DNA of 64,000 nt, taken from Streptosporangiaceae bacterium (GTDB taxonomy: Bacteria; Actinomycetota; Actinomycetes; Streptosporangiales; Streptosporangiaceae). Of the stretch, positions 1-42,446 are shown piece after piece; the stretch's first letter is position 1, and each line of letters begins with the position of its first letter. The translations under genes and the position numbers were made by a program. The stretch covers positions 27,744-91,743 of the forward strand of contig JBEKIF010000013.1 in NCBI GenBank assembly GCA_050011895.1. Direction: 5' to 3'. The notes beneath the pieces are model-generated. The model had not been told where the DNA came from. It saw only the letters and a program-made list of their open reading frames with translations, and ran no database searches.

Positions 1-519
1 GCGACGAGACTGTCCGTCGTCTGCACATGCTGGCCGCTGTAGAGCGTGAGCGACGTGCTGCCCGACCCTCCGACGGCGCCGCAGCCGGCCAGCAGCCCGC
101 CGCCGATGACCATCGCGGCGACGACAGCGGCCCGGCGGCTCACCACGCCGGGCCAGCCGAGAGCGCGCCGATCCGGTCGCTCGCCATGGCGGCTGGCTCC
201 CTGCTGCGCCGCTGCTGCCGTTGATACCGAAGAACTGCCTGGTATTCCGTGATCATCGTCCCGTCCGGCGGTGGGGTCATCAGCGATTGAATTAGCTTAG
301 GCTAACCTAATAACGGGTCGATGGCGGGCCCTTCCGACTGAGCGGAGCTTTGGCTGCGAGCTCCGGGCCGCCATCGCGTACGGGCCCCGACCAGGTCCTC
401 CGCTGCCAGTTCCATCTCAAGGCCGGACCGGCCGCGCTGCAGAAGACCGTGGCGCGGTGGCGTCGACCACCACGCGCAGCCGCTGGCCGATCCGTGAGAC
501 CACCGGCCCGCCGGGTCCT

Positions 520-720
520 GGCTGCCCGCGCGGCCAGCCTGCCGCCCGCGCGGCCAGGCTGCCGCTCGCGCGGCCCGCCTGGCGCTCGCGCGGCCAGCCT
601 GCCGCCCGCCTGGCGCTCGCGCGGCCAGCCTGCCGCCCGCCTGGCGCTCGCGCGGCCAGGCTGCCGCCCGGGGAGTCCGGCCGCTCGCGCGGCCAGCCTG
701 CCGCCCGGGGAAGCCGGCTG
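520..720. repeat. GC-rich degenerate tandem repeat array (unit ~31 bp, cgcgcggccagcctgccgcccgcctggcgct, about 6 copies)
   Basis: Read directly: the units cgcgcggccagcctgccgcc and cgcctggcgct recur head-to-tail. Overlapping ORFs in three frames (302..823-, 350..832+, 457..861+) are all repeat-driven Ala/Arg/Pro-rich, so coding status is doubtful. Confidence 0.7.
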
Positions 721-855
721 GCCTACGAGCTCGGCCTCGGCGGTCGCCGGTACCGGGGGAGACGAGATCGCGGCCCGCGCTGTCACCGAGTCCAAGATCG
801 TCGCCTCGCCCGAAGTCCGGCAATCTGGCTGAAACTGCTCTCCAAAGTCAAGATC

Positions 856-938
856 ATCTAGAACCTATACCGGATTTAGTGGGAATATAACGGACATTAG
901 GCCCATGCAAGCCACCAAATCCGGTATAGGTTCGAGCT
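856..938. repeat. AT-rich imperfect inverted repeat / stem-loop
   Basis: Arm aacctataccggatttagtgg (862-882) is complementary to ccaccaaatccggtataggtt (912-932) at 20 of 21 positions. A 29-nt loop separates them. The flanking tctagaacc / ggttcgag extend the dyad imperfectly. It sits in a locally AT-rich patch between the two GC-rich arrays. Confidence 0.6.
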
Positions 939-1308
939 GGCCAGTTCTGGTAAGGGGTCAGGCCTCGTTTAGGCCAGCCGAATCGAAGCCGCATGGTCGA
1001 GTGTCACCCTGCTCGATCAACCGCCGGGCAGGAGCCCGGCGTGGTGGGTTTCGCAGGCAACATCGTTCTCGTGTCCCTGAGCGACATCGCCGCGGACCAC
1101 AGACTACGCATTGTTCGACTACTGCCGGGCATGTCACCTGGGGCGCCGCCGCCGCCGCTTGCCGGAGGCTCGGCCGGCCTGCCGGGCGGGCTGGCCGTCG
1201 GCGGGCGGGATCGCTGAGCCGGGAGGCTCTGACGCCCCTGGACGGGTGGCGCGGCCCTCGTGCTTCGCCCCGGCCGCCCCGACCAGCGGACCTTGCCGGG
1301 CGGCTGGG

Positions 1309-1440
1309 CTGGGCTGGGCGGGCTGGTTTGCGCGGTTCGGCTGGGCGGGCTGGTTTGCGCGGTTCGGCTGGGCGGGCTGGTTTGCGCGGTTCGGCTGGGC
1401 GGGCTGGTTTGCGCGGTTCGGCTGGGCGGGCTGGCTGGCC
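1309..1440. repeat. Tandem repeat, 27-bp unit ggctgggcgggctggtttgcgcggttc x ~5
   Basis: Five near-perfect consecutive copies read directly. Minus-strand ORF 958..1812 translates them as PARPAEPRK x5 and ORF 1134..1691 as QPAQPNRAN x5, so any coding would be repeat-only. Confidence 0.75.
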
Positions 1441-2046
1441 TTGCGGGGCAGGCTGGCGCGCCCGGCTCCGCTGACTTGCCGGCCCTGGCTGACCCGCGGA
1501 AGCCGGCTGACTGGCGCGGGCCGGCTGGCTGGCCGGGTCTGCCGGGCCCCCGGAGGCTGGCTGGCGTGCTTGGCGCCGGCTTGGCTGTCCTGGCGGGCCG
1601 GCGCCGACGGCCTGGGCGTCGCGGTCGCGCGCCTGTCCTTCATGCTCGGCATGCGGCCTCGACACGTCCCTGGCCCGCATAGCCGCGTCAACTGTTACCT
1701 TCATGCCTGTCATAGCGGTCCATCCCGGCTCGCGATCGGGTAGGGGCAAGAAAATCGCCGCACACCATGGCGCTGGATTCCATGACGGCGCGGTGGAGCG
1801 TGGGCAGGGCACCCGGCCGCGGTCCGGCCACTAGGCCGTGGTGCCCGGTTGGTATTCAGGATATGGTCCGTCACTTTGATGACCTGGTCTACCTGGCAGG
1901 CGCAGTACCCTGCCGCGCGCCCGCCCCGCGGAATGTCGACCCGCCAGACCCGCAGCCCGTCGGTCAGCCGCGCCGGCCCTGCTTCGCGCGGCTAACGGGT
2001 TCGCAGCGGGTGGATATCCCGCATCTACCGGTACAGTGCCGGCATC

Positions 2047-3147
2047 ATGGTTCATCACGTCCCGCACCGTTTCATGGCCGCGGCGCAGGCAGCGCTGTTC
2101 CGGCTACGCGGCGTGATCCGCCGGCAGTTCATCACCAGGAACCGGCGGCTGGCGTTCGGGCTGGCGATCTCCGTGGTGGCGATCGGCGCGGCAGCGGTCC
2201 GGGTGTCGGTGTCGTGGTTCTCGCCCGGCGTGATGATCCTGCCCATCCTGGCCGGCGGCCTACTGCTGTGGCCGCGGGCGCTGCGAATCCTGTTCTGCGT
2301 GGTCGCTGTGATGCTCGGCTACGACTGGCTGGAGGGCCGCGCTGAGCCTGGCATCGTCGCCACCATCGTTGTCACTGCCCTGATTGCCGATGTGCTCGCC
2401 AGGACCAGGGAGAAGCTTGGCGTCCAGGGACTGCGCGGCGACCAGATGCTGATTGAGCTGCGGGACCGGATCCGTGCCCAGAGCAGGCTGCCCGAACTGC
2501 CTTTTGGCTGGCAGTCCGTTTCGGTGCTCAGGCCAGCAGGGGGCTCGTCGTTCGGCGGCGATTTCGTGGTCTCCGCATGTGACGGGAAAACACTCGAAGT
2601 CGCGCTGGTGGACGTGTCAGGTAAAGGTATCGACGCCGGGACCCGCGCGCTGCTGCTGTCCGGCGCGTTCGGCGGGCTTCTCGGCTCGGTTCCTGCCGGG
2701 CAGTTCCTGGCCTGCTGTAATGCCTACCTGCGGCGCGGCGCCGTCACCGAGGGCTTCGTAACGGCGGTGCACCTAGCGCTTGACCTGGGGACCGGAGAAT
2801 ATGTGGTTGACTCAGCCGGTCACCCGCCAGCGGCGCATTTCGAGGCTGGCAGCGGCAAGTGGCGGCTTACCCAGGCCAGCGGCGTGGTGCTTGGCGTGGT
2901 CCCTGATCTGCGCAGCGTCCCTGAGGGCGGCGCGCTGCGGCCTGGAGATGCGCTGATGCTCTATACCGACGGGCTCGTCGAGGCGCCGGGCCGGGACATC
3001 GACGTGGGCATCGACCGGCTGCTCGGTGCGGCGGACCGGCTGGTGACATCGGGCTTCGGGGCGGGTGCCGCGCGCCTTGTCCAGACGATGCAGGAAGGGG
3101 AGCGCAGCTCCGACGACTGTGCGCTGGTGCTTATCTGGCGGGGCTGA
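2047..3147 (+). CDS. Membrane-anchored PP2C-type (SpoIIE-like) serine phosphatase
   Basis: The N-terminus carries ~3 hydrophobic helices (LAFGLAISVVAIGAAAV, VMILPILAGGLLLW, ILFCVVAVMLGY). The C-terminal PP2C/SpoIIE motifs are GGDFVV, VALVDVSGKGIDAG and LYTDGLVE. The 3' end overlaps cvnD convergently by 17 bp. Confidence 0.75.
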   Translation: MVHHVPHRFMAAAQAALFRLRGVIRRQFITRNRRLAFGLAISVVAIGAAAVRVSVSWFSPGVMILPILAGGLLLWPRALRILFCVVAVMLGYDWLEGRAEPGIVATIVVTALIADVLARTREKLGVQGLRGDQMLIELRDRIRAQSRLPELPFGWQSVSVLRPAGGSSFGGDFVVSACDGKTLEVALVDVSGKGIDAGTRALLLSGAFGGLLGSVPAGQFLACCNAYLRRGAVTEGFVTAVHLALDLGTGEYVVDSAGHPPAAHFEAGSGKWRLTQASGVVLGVVPDLRSVPEGGALRPGDALMLYTDGLVEAPGRDIDVGIDRLLGAADRLVTSGFGAGAARLVQTMQEGERSSDDCALVLIWRG

Positions 3148-7330: not shown

Positions 7331-7560
7331 AGGCCGGGGTTCACGGAATCCCCCGAGTCTGATGCCACAGCCGAGAGTGCCATAGGCACCCAAATCATCC
7401 CAAGGTCGCTCAGGTTCTGAGTTCAGGGCTGCCAGGTGCGTGGCGGGAGGCCGACAAAAGTTGGTGCTGGCCACGCGAGGTCCGCCCGGATCCTGCCGAG
7501 GCCGGCTAGGTTGCCCCGGCCGGCTGGGATGCAGCCGAAGTCGGTGGGTTCTGGCTCGGC

Positions 7561-7698
7561 GGGCCGGGACTCTGGGTGGCGGCGGGCCGGGACTCTGGGT
7601 GGCGGCGGGCCGGGACTCTGGGTGGCGGCGGGCCGGGACTCTGGGTGGCGGCGGGCCGGGATTCTGGGTGGCGGCGGGCCGGGATTCTGGCGTGGTGA
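7561..7698. repeat. Intergenic tandem repeat, 23-bp unit gggccgggactctgggtggcggc x ~6 (last copies attctg variants)
   Basis: Read directly. The 23-bp period is not a multiple of 3. Overlapping ORFs on both strands show 23-aa (69-bp) periodicity, which is consistent with repeat artefacts. Confidence 0.75.
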
Positions 7699-42160: not shown

Positions 42161-42234
42161 TGGAGCGGGCGAAGGGAATCGAACCCTCATGACCAGCTTG
42201 GAAGGCTGGGGCTCTACCATTGAGCTACGCCCGC
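42161..42234 (-). tRNA. tRNA-Gly (anticodon TCC)
   Basis: The reverse complement reads GCGGGCGTAGCTCAATGGTAGAGC C CCAGC CTTCCAA GCTGG ... GGGTTCGATTCCC TTCGCCCGC TCCA. It has the cloverleaf arms and a TCC anticodon. Coordinates are from manual indexing, +/-1. Confidence 0.85.
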
Positions 42235-42368
42235 GGTACGTGGACCTCAGGCCGTAGCGTACCGCCTGTGGGAAGGCTCTCGCGTGCCGCCCGGCTGACG
42301 CGAGCGGGCTGGGCGCTGTTGCGCGCGGCCGCGCGATGCCGGAACACGGTAGGCTTCGGGTTGCCCGA

Positions 42369-42446
42369 CGGGATGTAGCGCAGCTTGGTTAGCGCGCCTG
42401 CTTTGGGAGCAGGAGGCCGCGGGTTCGAATCCCGCCATCCCGACCA
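42369..42446 (+). tRNA. tRNA-Pro (anticodon TGG)
   Basis: CGGGATG TA GCGC AGCTTGGTTA GCGC G CCTGC TTTGGGA GCAGG AGGCC GCGGG TTCGAAT CCCGC CATCCCG A CCA. It has U33, a TGG anticodon and G37. Coordinates are from manual indexing, +/-1. Confidence 0.85.

What the first reader, a model, noticed from the sequence alone, without database searches (positions are those of the whole stretch)
300..1700. Composite repeat structure: two GC-rich tandem arrays flanking an AT-rich 21-bp inverted-repeat hairpin
Array A (520-720, ~31-bp unit) and array B (1309-1440, 27-bp unit x5) sit on either side of an AT-rich patch. That patch contains a near-perfect 21-bp inverted repeat with a 29-nt loop (862-932). The reverse complement of the B unit (ccgcgcaaaccagcccgcccagcc) loosely resembles the A unit (cgcgcggccagcctgccgcccgcc), which hints at an overall inverted architecture. 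Long ORFs cross the arrays in several frames and encode only Pro/Ala/Arg repeats (for example PARPAEPRK x5), so protein-coding is doubtful. The arrangement resembles a MITE-like or recombination/regulatory element or a small-RNA locus more than a CRISPR array.
Basis: seen in the sequence. Interest (0 to 1): 0.55.

Follow-up and report, generated by a model that had tools for sequence, protein, structure and literature searches.

The report
Three unrelated repeats, not one element
The "composite" is three independent things lying in a stretch of decayed genes: a coding repeat inside a real small-protein gene, an ordinary non-coding minisatellite, and one copy of a previously undescribed ~68-base palindromic element scattered between genes in related soil actinomycetes.

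Summary
All three features are really there: array A, array B and the 22-bp inverted repeat. They do not form one element.

- **Array B** (1312-1434, 27 nt x4.6) is an in-frame 9-codon repeat on the minus strand. It sits in the linker of a conserved, uncharacterised small protein (N-terminus MxGMK[VI]TVDAAMRARDVSRP, poly-Arg tail). I found 186 homologues, and the gene is syntenic with the neighbouring PP2C/SpoIIE gene. The window lacks 14 nt at 1433, which frameshifts the gene.
- **Array A** (524-707) is a non-coding minisatellite of 20/31/37-nt units. Its length is 220, 226 and 297 nt in three near-identical strains. It lies where a YbaK-like gene has decayed.
- **A versus reverse-complement B:** the resemblance is no better than controls.
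- **The hairpin** (855-939) is the interesting part. Twelve copies in unrelated intergenic contexts share the arms, an asymmetric loop motif and compensatory arm changes. Most lie 30-240 nt past a stop codon. No transposase, target duplication or Rfam family was found. It looks like a new REP/MITE-like family and probably forms a 3'-end stem-loop.
- **Open point:** 9-10 of these 12 copies have a GC-rich tandem array within 160 nt. This is suggestive and unexplained.

Overall interest is modest.

The parts
352..534 (-). Decayed 3' part of a YbaK/ProX-type (Pfam tRNA_edit) gene; the pieces lie in three different frames
   Evidence: blastn to the tRNA_edit genes of relatives: L009 1860-2007 (72%, E 1e-15) and L007 516-715 (67%, E 1e-10). 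tblastn finds TVFCSA.., GRSGLEMELAAEDLVGA and QRLRVVVDATA in different frames.
524..730 (.). Array A: non-coding GC-rich minisatellite (VNTR), 7 units of 20/31/37/45 nt starting CGCGCGGCCAG
   Evidence: Length is 220 nt in the window, 226 nt in L002 and 297 nt (10 units) in L023. GC is 0.83-0.93 at all three codon positions. No Pfam or NCBIfam hit for any crossing ORF.
855..939 (-). One copy of a dispersed ~68-nt palindromic element (conserved element 860-934; arms 861-882 and 912-933). The strand carrying the conserved loop motif ATGTCCGnTAT is the minus strand.
   Evidence: Covariance model R1 scores 80.2 bits on the - strand against 54.6 on the + strand.
1029..1119 (+). Remnant of a SET-domain gene (about 30 of 173 residues, frameshifted)
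   Evidence: tblastn with the L008/L009 SET proteins: VGFAGNIVLVSLSDIAADHRL at 1044-1106 and TTDYALFD at 1096-1119 in another frame. blastn 1056-1123 to L009 2671-2749. The extension back to about 1029 rests on my own reading of the translation, not a tool alignment.
1134..1713 (-). Gene for a small Arg-tailed disordered protein with an expanded linker (start ATG 1713-1711; the ancestral stop at 1134-1136 follows ..GKRRRRRPR). It is frameshifted in the window by a 14-nt deletion after 1433, so the N-terminal frame actually runs on to the stop at 958.
1312..1434 (-). Array B: in-frame 27-nt (9-codon) coding tandem repeat in the linker of that gene. It reads QPAQPNRAN in intact alleles and PARPAEPRK in the window's shifted frame. 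Copy number varies between strains.
   Evidence: Copies: 4.6 in the window and L003, 5.6 in L001/L002, about 2-3 in P0121 and L004.
1422..1537 (-). Imperfect 18-nt (6-codon) repeat, also coding, in the same linker (..SQPARASQPASAGQPGPAS..)
1750..1973 (-). Remnant of the C-terminal end of an Eis-like acetyltransferase gene. In relatives this gene is intact and sits between the SpoIIE gene and the small-protein gene.
   Evidence: tblastn: L007 acetyltransferase residues 313-353 match 1973-1848 (52%, E 1.6e-5) and residues 417-432 match 1797-1750 (81%). Context.
2047..3147 (+). Intact PP2C/SpoIIE phosphatase gene, the syntenic anchor used for the comparative work
   Evidence: Pfam SpoIIE 5.9e-30; orthologues.

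Best explanation
The 1.9-kb stretch between an iron-transporter operon and the PP2C/SpoIIE gene is a decayed gene neighbourhood. It holds three independent repeat features that merely lie side by side.

(1) Array B is a coding minisatellite. Nine-codon units expanded by replication slippage inside the disordered linker of a conserved small protein on the minus strand. This protein has an N-terminal motif MxGMK[VI]TVDAAMRARDVSRP, a variable Pro/Ala/Gln-rich linker and a C-terminal poly-Arg tail. It is normally 59-76 residues long but 180-313 in this lineage. The linker tolerates gain and loss of units, so copy number differs between strains. In the window a 14-nt deletion between GGGCTG direct repeats shifts the frame and removes the Arg tail. 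This is either a broken allele or an assembly error.

(2) Array A is a non-coding, hypervariable GC-rich minisatellite of the kind common in this genome's intergenic DNA. It sits where the 5' half of a YbaK-like gene used to be.

(3) The AT-rich hairpin is one copy of a dispersed ~68-nt palindromic element of the REP/REPIN or MITE kind. Its consensus on the minus strand of the window is C[TC]TATACCGGATTTGGTGG - about 26 nt of loop containing ATGTCnGnTATG - [TC]CACCAAATCCGGTATA[AG]G.

What is shown: the element's dispersal, its intergenic and mostly 3'-of-gene location, arm complementarity kept through double changes, and a strong predicted stem-loop. What is inferred: that it spreads or once spread through a trans-acting enzyme, and that once transcribed it acts as a terminator-like or mRNA-stabilising 3' stem-loop for the upstream gene. 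In the window that upstream gene is the small-protein gene, which is on the same strand.
For: **Decayed neighbourhood.** Remnants of the YbaK-like, SET and Eis-like acetyltransferase genes lie in the same order as the intact genes of relatives.

**Array B is coding.**
- In 7 related loci an ORF with the same N-terminus ends in a poly-Arg run.
- A profile of the N-terminus finds 186 proteins, mostly 59-76 aa with an RRRRRR tail, in Actinomadura, Spirillospora, Thermomonospora and MAGs.
- The gene stays next to the SpoIIE gene as far out as cultured Thermomonosporaceae.
- The unit is 27 nt = 9 codons, and strains differ by whole units.
- All three near-identical contigs carry the 14 nt that joins the two window ORFs into one.

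**Array A is non-coding.** Unit lengths are 20/31/37 nt. Strain lengths are 220, 226 and 297 nt. There is no codon periodicity or coding score and no family hit. A second non-coding 23-nt array at 7557 also differs by one unit between strains, and about 20 arrays occur in the 64 kb.

**No A/B relationship**.

**Hairpin family.**
- One hit in a GTDB MAG and 20 metagenome contigs give 12 distinct copies including the window's. Two of them lie on one contig.
- Flanking genes are unrelated housekeeping genes.
- The element is always intergenic, usually 30-240 nt after a stop codon and often between convergent genes.
- The model scores 70-87 bits on one strand and 25-30 bits less on the other.
- Arm changes are symmetric: CTTATA/TATAAG against CCTATA/TATAGG, and TGTACC/GGTACA. 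The covariation score exceeds all 500 shuffles.
- All copies fold at -27 to -43 kcal/mol.
Against: **Bias in the hairpin sample.** The hairpin copies were fished with a pattern requiring 12 exact bases in each arm. The invariance of those 24 positions is therefore built in, and the family's true diversity and copy number per genome are unknown.

**Mobility is not demonstrated.** No empty site, target-site duplication, transposase or RAYT was seen. Only one copy occurs in the 64-kb window and none in six related loci.

**No RNA-strand signal.** Folding energy shows no preference for the motif-bearing strand (6 of 12), so an RNA-level role is not supported over a DNA-level one. No T-run follows the stem.

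**Adjacency may not be accidental.** 9-10 of 12 copies have a GC-rich tandem array within 160 nt, against 27% of control intergenic positions and 43% of control intergenic regions. The hairpin lying next to array A may therefore be more than chance.

**Weak coding statistics for the small-protein gene.** GC3 is not highest in the homology-supported N-terminal frame. The case for coding rests on conservation, not composition.
Confidence: 0.8

Rival explanations
1. The hairpin and a neighbouring GC-rich tandem array form a recurring two-part module. Either the stable hairpin provokes replication slippage and seeds minisatellites next to itself, or the element inserts preferentially beside such arrays. 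On this view the adjacency in the window is not accidental, even though array B and the specific units are unrelated.
For: 9-10 of 12 distinct hairpin copies have a tandem array within 160 nt, against 27% of control intergenic positions. 10 of 12 hairpin-holding intergenic regions have an array, against 22 of 51 control regions. In L018, L019 and L021 the array fills the whole gap between a stop codon and the hairpin. The stronger arrays (L010, L014, L018, L019, L021, L030a, L030b) all lie on the 5' side of the motif-bearing strand. In L012 a 21-nt tandem duplication straddles the end of the element itself.
Against: Array units differ completely between loci. The genome is generally rich in intergenic arrays: about 20 in 64 kb, including one at 7557 with no hairpin nearby. 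My gene calls for the control were crude, so depending on the base rate used the p-value is only about 0.001-0.03. Several of the counted arrays are weak two-copy repeats. In the window itself array A lies on the 3' side, the opposite of the trend. L011 and L026 have no array.
Confidence: 0.12
2. The hairpin is a locus-specific intrinsic terminator (or bidirectional terminator) of the small-protein gene and not a member of any repeat family.
For: It lies downstream of that gene on the same strand: 200 nt after the ancestral stop and 19-24 nt after the frameshifted stop. It forms a very stable stem.
Against: The same arm sequence, spacing (51-52 nt start to start) and loop motif occur at 11 or more unrelated loci. 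The orthologous genes in L004-L009 and L032-L035 have no such hairpin. There is no T-run. A terminator role is still compatible with the best explanation; only 'locus-specific' is rejected.
Confidence: 0.03
3. The palindrome is a conserved functional site or gene rather than a selfish repeat. It could be a binding site for a sequence-specific DNA-binding protein: two inverted half-sites plus a third partial copy in the loop. Or it could be a multi-copy small RNA or mini-ORF locus, since the motif-bearing strand carries ATG-TCn-Gnn-ATG-nnn-yCA-CCA-AAT-CCG-GTA-TAR, i.e. MSxMx[SP]PNPV-stop.
For: The two copies on one contig (L030) keep the arms and the motif while their loops have diverged to my rough estimate of about 60% identity by eye (not computed). 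The loop motif ATGTCCGGTATG resembles the right arm AAATCCGGTATA. A 10-codon frame ending in TAA or TAG is open in 9 of 12 copies, and its Ser codon appears as TCC, TCG, TCT and TCA. A 4-bp inner helix shows covariation.
Against: Arm conservation is partly due to how the copies were selected. The positions are mostly 3' of genes, which is odd for an operator. There is no convincing ribosome-binding site at the right distance. Variation in the putative codons is not confined to third positions. The stop codon is simply part of the palindromic arm. There is no Rfam match and no strand bias in folding energy.
Confidence: 0.1
4. The whole 300-1700 region is one composite MITE-like or recombination element with two inverted GC-rich arrays around a central hairpin.
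For: Only the layout in this one window: array A, then the hairpin, then array B.
Against: A versus reverse-complement B similarity equals the direct-orientation score and is below controls. The units are unique. Array B is coding in a conserved gene that exists without array A or the hairpin in relatives. Gene remnants separate the parts. The hairpin occurs elsewhere without these arrays.
Confidence: 0.02

Closest known systems
REP / REPIN elements (repetitive extragenic palindromes mobilised by RAYT transposases; PMC3116915, PMC3337134, PMC2817692)
   Same: A short, extragenic palindromic repeat in multiple copies. Two inverted arms are separated by a less conserved spacer and form one long hairpin (REPIN-like geometry). 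It is typically found at the 3' ends of genes or between convergent genes, with no target-site duplication.
   Different: Each arm is not itself a clear REP hairpin. No conserved GTAG-type foot was seen, and no RAYT was found in the flanks examined. Copy density seen here is low (1 in 64 kb) and genome-wide abundance is unknown. The host is a high-GC actinomycete. That REP/RAYT systems are mainly described in Proteobacteria is my own knowledge.
MITEs of the Correia / ERIC / RUP kind (small non-autonomous palindromic elements co-transcribed with neighbouring genes)
   Same: Tens of bases long, with terminal inverted repeats, no coding capacity for a transposase, dispersed in intergenic DNA, and predicted to fold into a stable RNA stem-loop that could affect termination or mRNA stability.
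   Different: No target-site duplication and no parental insertion sequence with matching ends were found.
Coding minisatellites/VNTRs in low-complexity linkers, and intergenic VNTRs such as mycobacterial MIRUs (own knowledge)
   Same: Array B is an in-frame unit (27 nt) with copy number that varies between strains inside a disordered linker. Array A and the 23-nt array at 7557 are intergenic GC-rich arrays that vary between near-identical strains.
   Different: Units are lineage-specific and unrelated to MIRU sequences. Array A has mixed unit lengths (20/31/37 nt).
Uncharacterised small Arg-tailed proteins of Streptosporangiales (for example 'hypothetical protein' SAMN04489712_106219 of Thermomonospora echinospora, P0205)
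   Same: The same N-terminal motif [KR][IV]TVDAAMRARDVSRP, an acidic or Pro/Ala-rich linker, a basic C-terminal tail, and the same position next to the PP2C/SpoIIE gene.
   Different: The linker is expanded three- to five-fold by tandem repeats in this lineage, and the window's copy is frameshifted and lacks the tail.

Membership tests
REP/REPIN | Short imperfect palindrome located outside genes | tested here: met
   All 12 copies are intergenic by ORF/GC3 calls and Pfam of neighbours. The stem has 18-22 bp.
REP/REPIN | High copy number within one genome (tens to hundreds) | not testable with these tools
   No complete genome of the host was available. I saw 1 copy in the 64-kb window, 2 copies on one 36-kb contig and 12 distinct copies in all. 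The single genome-contig scan used CTATACC.., which misses the commoner CTTATACC subtype.
REP/REPIN | Cognate RAYT (Y1/HUH transposase) gene, usually flanked by REPs | tested here: inconclusive
   None among the 20 flanking ORFs scanned with Pfam. The rest of the genomes could not be examined.
REP/REPIN | Two inverted REP units, each a hairpin with a conserved 5' tetranucleotide | tested here: not met
   The arms (CTTATACCGGATTTGGTGG) are not convincingly self-complementary, and no conserved GTAG/CTAC foot is present in alignment A1.
MITE | Terminal inverted repeats on a small element without a transposase | tested here: met
   18-22-nt inverted arms, ~68 nt overall, no long ORF.
MITE | Target-site duplication flanking each copy | tested here: not met
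   The flanks of the 12 copies show no direct repeat. The palindrome is at most extended by A...T.
MITE | Parental insertion sequence with the same ends; insertion polymorphism (filled versus empty sites) | tested here: inconclusive
   No isolated arms or transposase were found in 268 kb of loci. Relatives of the window locus lack the hairpin, but that region is also rearranged or deleted, so no clean empty site exists.
Intrinsic (rho-independent) terminator | GC-rich stem with a short loop followed by a T-run | tested here: not met
   The consensus scan finds none in 150-2100. The loop is 29 nt, the stem is AT-rich and there is no T-run.
Any Rfam RNA family | Match to a curated covariance model | tested here: not met
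   cmscan of 1-3000, both strands, E up to 1: no match.
Small Arg-tailed protein family (no Pfam/NCBIfam model) | N-terminal motif MxGM[KR][IV]TVDAAMRARDVSRP | tested here: met
   The window has MTGMKVTVDAAMRARDVSRP at 1713-1654(-). 16 columns are invariant in 7 sequences.
Small Arg-tailed protein family (no Pfam/NCBIfam model) | C-terminal poly-Arg tail in the same reading frame | tested here: not met
   In the window the tail (GKRRRRRPR, ending at 1134) is in another frame because of the 14-nt deletion. It is in frame in L001, L002, L004 and L006-L009. The window therefore carries a disrupted member.
Small Arg-tailed protein family (no Pfam/NCBIfam model) | Synteny with the PP2C/SpoIIE gene | tested here: met
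CRISPR array | Identical repeats separated by unique spacers of similar length | tested here: not met
   Both arrays are head-to-tail tandem repeats without spacers.

The most novel reading that the evidence does not exclude
The ~68-nt palindrome is a new, orientation-specific and structure-constrained class of intergenic element in soil Streptosporangiales-like actinomycetes, and it is mechanistically coupled to minisatellite formation. On this reading the stable hairpin, sitting just past stop codons, stalls replication or transcription and seeds the GC-rich tandem arrays that fill the gap between the gene and the hairpin. Adjacency of 'tandem array + AT-rich hairpin' would then be a reproducible genomic signature rather than coincidence. 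The conserved loop motif or 10-codon frame might reflect a bound protein or a translated mini-ORF.
Probability: 0.12. Interest if true: 0.55.

Novelty: new member of a known kind. Interest (0 to 1): 0.3.

Why it matters
For annotation. GC-rich coding repeats in actinomycetes are easily dismissed as non-coding, or called on the wrong strand. JGI called a '+ strand collagen' ORF here. Comparative evidence instead rescues a real, conserved small-protein gene and exposes a frameshifted allele.

For genome biology. The hairpin adds a REP/MITE-like family in a lineage where I found none described (sequence and keyword searches only). It gives a concrete motif and a covariance model for surveying complete genomes. 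It also raises a testable question: do strong intergenic hairpins and minisatellites co-occur for a mechanistic reason?

For strain typing. The two arrays studied here, and at least one other at 7557, carry most of the indel differences between near-identical strains. They are natural VNTR markers for strain tracking in peat metagenomes.

Tried and rejected
- **Rfam.** Scan of 1-3000: nothing.
- **tRNA/tmRNA.** None near the region.
- **Pfam and NCBIfam on every ORF crossing the arrays.** The only hits were a spurious 'Collagen' hit on the antisense Gly-X-Y frame and a sub-threshold Amelogenin hit.
- **Codon-usage and GC3 frame analysis.** It gave no clear coding frame anywhere in 150-2040, and it even favoured the wrong frame upstream of 1433. 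It was therefore set aside in favour of homology.
- **Full-length search with the intact small protein.** It was swamped by low-complexity words and returned 3 hits. The N-terminal profile worked instead.
- **A versus reverse-complement B relationship.** Rejected.
- **Hairpin arms as a remnant of the SET gene** (GFSGNI at 871-889). This is a chance match (E 0.55), because the same arm occurs at all other loci.
- **Hairpin in plasmid and phage collections.** No match. The viral-contig hit L031 and the AT-rich L015 score only 24-31 bits and look unrelated.
- **Literature search by sequence.** Nothing relevant for the hairpin or the protein motif. PDB: nothing meaningful.
- **Strand bias of folding energy or G-U pairs as a test of RNA-level function.** None found.
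- **Target-site duplications.** None found.
Full report
**Observation**

The window is 69.6% GC. Orthologues of its SpoIIE gene are named 'Streptosporangiaceae bacterium' in MAG records.

- Array B is exact: 1312-1434, 27 nt x4.6, 100% identity. There are four exact 27-mers and no other copy in the 64 kb.
- Array A (524-707 by TRF) consists of 7 head-to-tail units of 20, 20, 20, 31, 31, 37 and 45 nt, each beginning CGCGCGGCCAG.
- The inverted repeat has 22-nt arms at 861-882 and 912-933 with one mismatch and a 29-nt loop, extendable to 28 nt. It is the best short-range inverted repeat in the window.
- As RNA it folds at -40.6 kcal/mol on the + strand and -49.3 kcal/mol on the - strand, where the mismatch becomes G-U (z -4.6 and -6.4).
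- The surrounding patch is 48% GC.

So the features are real. The proposed resemblance between the reverse complement of B and A is not. Local alignment gives 49 in both orientations, other window segments reach 64, and dinucleotide shuffles reach 57.

**Surroundings**

The 1.9 kb between a minus-strand solute-binding lipoprotein gene (running off the left end) and the SpoIIE/PP2C gene (2047-3147) has no convincing coding signal by GC3 or codon usage. I fetched orthologous loci through the SpoIIE protein.

In relatives the order is YbaK-like tRNA_edit (-), SET (+), a small unannotated ORF (-), Eis-like acetyltransferase (-), SpoIIE (+) (L009, L008, L034). The window keeps only fragments of three of these genes:

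- tRNA_edit 3' end at 352-534, in three different frames;
- SET residues ~92-120 at 1044-1119, frameshifted, possibly extending back to ~1029 by my own reading;
- the acetyltransferase C-terminus at 1750-1973.

The region is a gene graveyard, and the three 'parts' of the composite are separated by these remnants.

**Array B**

Six-frame searches of all loci for DAAMRAR show one ORF type in every relative. It has the N-terminus M(T/P/A)GMK(V/I)TVDAAMRARDVSRP, a low-complexity linker with lineage-specific repeats, and a C-terminal RRRRR.R tail.

In the window the N-terminus (start 1713) is in the frame of ORF 958..1812(-), and the tail (..GKRRRRRPR, stop at 1134) is in the frame of ORF 1134..1691(-). 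Three near-identical metagenome contigs (L001-L003) carry 14 extra nucleotides after window position 1433. These join the two frames into a single ORF, and L001 and L002 also carry one more 27-nt unit.

In the intact frame the repeat reads QPAQPNRAN. PARPAEPRK is the shifted reading.

A profile of the first 43 residues finds 186 proteins. Most are 59-76 aa 'hypothetical proteins' from Actinomadura, Spirillospora, Thermomonospora and MAGs, all with a basic tail. The gene sits beside the SpoIIE gene even in cultured Thermomonosporaceae. No Pfam, NCBIfam, PDB or literature match exists.

Array B is therefore a coding minisatellite in an expanded disordered linker of a real but uncharacterised gene. 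The window's copy is disrupted, or mis-assembled, by a 14-nt deletion between GGGCTG repeats. The '+ strand collagen' gene called by JGI on L001/L002 is an antisense artefact.

**Array A**

- The unit lengths are not multiples of three.
- All three codon positions are about 87% GC.
- No crossing ORF has a family hit.
- The array measures 220, 226 (different unit order) and 297 nt (10 units) in the window, L002 and L023. The +77-nt difference would break any frame.

It lies where the 5' half of the decayed tRNA_edit gene would be. The genome has about 20 tandem arrays in 64 kb. A 23-nt intergenic array at 7557-7695 differs by one unit between the window and L001, and it is the only indel in 11 kb of 99.74% identity. 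Array A is an ordinary non-coding VNTR.

**Hairpin**

A two-arm pattern scan found one locus in 185,579 species genomes: L010, an uncultured Actinomycetota MAG with no other similarity to the window. It also found 20 metagenome contigs. After removing duplicates and the window's own locus (L023) there are 12 distinct copies, two of them on one contig (L030).

Oriented by the loop, they align over ~68 nt: C[TC]TATACCGGATTTGGTGG, a variable 10-12 nt, ATGTCnGnTATG, then [TC]CACCAAATCCGGTATA[AG]G. The window's minus strand is the motif-bearing strand.

- A covariance model scores 70-87 bits on that strand and 25-30 bits less on the other. It finds no further copy in the window or in relatives.
- Arm changes are symmetric (CT../..AG against CC../..GG in four copies; TGTACC/GGTACA in one).
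- A 4-bp inner helix covaries.
- The covariation score exceeds all 500 shuffles.
- Caveat: 12 positions of each arm were fixed by the search pattern.

Neighbouring genes are unrelated housekeeping genes and none is a transposase. The element is always intergenic, usually 30-240 nt after a stop codon and often between convergent genes.

No target-site duplication was found. There is no Rfam family, no T-run, no plasmid or phage match, no literature hit and no strand bias in folding energy.

The best description is a new REP/REPIN- or MITE-like palindromic family. A terminator or mRNA-stabilising role for the upstream same-strand small-protein gene is inferred, not shown.

**Is the adjacency accidental?**

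Mostly yes, because the specific arrays are unrelated to the hairpin. However, 9-10 of 12 hairpin copies have some GC-rich tandem array within 160 nt. The controls are 27% of intergenic positions and 43% of intergenic regions.

In L018, L019 and L021 the array fills the gap between a stop codon and the hairpin. The stronger arrays all lie on the 5' side of the motif-bearing strand. Units differ between loci, and my control gene calls are crude (p roughly 0.001-0.03). I leave this as an unexplained, testable association; it is the basis of the novel case.

**Verdict**

The composite interpretation is rejected. Array B is coding, array A is a non-coding VNTR, and the hairpin is one copy of a new dispersed palindromic family. 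Overall interest is modest.

Noticed in passing
window 292-310: TTAGCTTAGGCTAACCTAA matches the IdeR/DtxR iron-box consensus TTAGGTTAGGCTAACCTAA with one mismatch (consensus from my own knowledge; scan, 0 expected by chance). It lies about 150 nt upstream of a lipoprotein gene that starts an FbpABC-like ABC transporter operon (SBP, double permease, ATPase with TOBE domain; Pfam on L023). This is probably an iron-repressed promoter.
   Followed up: partly
window 1433/1434: The window lacks 14 nt (GCCTGCTGGGCTGC) that L001, L002 and L003 all have. The missing stretch is flanked by GGGCTG direct repeats. Its absence frameshifts the small Arg-tailed protein gene, so the ORF runs on to 958 and loses its poly-Arg tail. 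This is either a real null allele or an assembly error.
   Followed up: partly
L001 365-1183 and L002 896-1714 (window ~864-1682, + strand): The public gene call here is a 272-aa plus-strand 'Collagen' ORF. It is the antisense reading of the GC-rich coding repeat (GRAGLRGSA units) and is almost certainly a mis-annotation.
   Followed up: yes
window 7557-7695: A non-coding 23-nt tandem array (98% identical units) lies in the divergent intergenic region between the conservon histidine-kinase gene and the hopanoid/squalene cluster. The window has 5 full units and L001 has 6. This is the only indel in 11 kb of 99.74% identity. About 20 tandem arrays occur in the 64 kb.
   Followed up: partly
L012 898-938: A 21-nt tandem duplication straddles the end of the palindromic element (..CCGGTATAAGTACCTCGGTA|GCCGGTATAAGCACCTCAGTA), as if slippage occurred at the base of the hairpin.
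   Followed up: no
L022 495-1100: In a different 66%-GC organism, other palindromes are built on the same CCGGATTTG / CAAATCCGG core but with different outer arms (CACACATCCGGATTTGTG..CACAAATCCGGATGTGTG). There is also what by my own reading of the sequence is a tandem repeat of roughly 96 nt (period not measured by any tool) carrying the core, which hints at a wider superfamily or a shared binding motif.
   Followed up: no
window 860-934 (- strand) and the other 11 copies: The motif-bearing strand carries a 10-codon frame, ATG TCn Gnn ATG nnn yCA CCA AAT CCG GTA TAR (MSxMx[SP]PNPV-stop), open in 9 of 12 copies. The Ser codon appears as TCC, TCG, TCT and TCA. The loop motif also resembles a third copy of the right arm. 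This is probably incidental.
   Followed up: no
L032 (CP109432.1), L034, L008, L009: The small Arg-tailed protein gene keeps its place beside the PP2C/SpoIIE gene from MAGs to cultured Thermomonosporaceae, with or without the Eis-like acetyltransferase between them. The conservon (cvnA-D-like) and a hopanoid cluster flank the SpoIIE gene. This suggests a functional link between the small protein and the phosphatase.
   Followed up: partly
window 42161-42446: Divergent tRNA-Gly(TCC) and tRNA-Pro(TGG) genes. They are unrelated to the finding.
   Followed up: no
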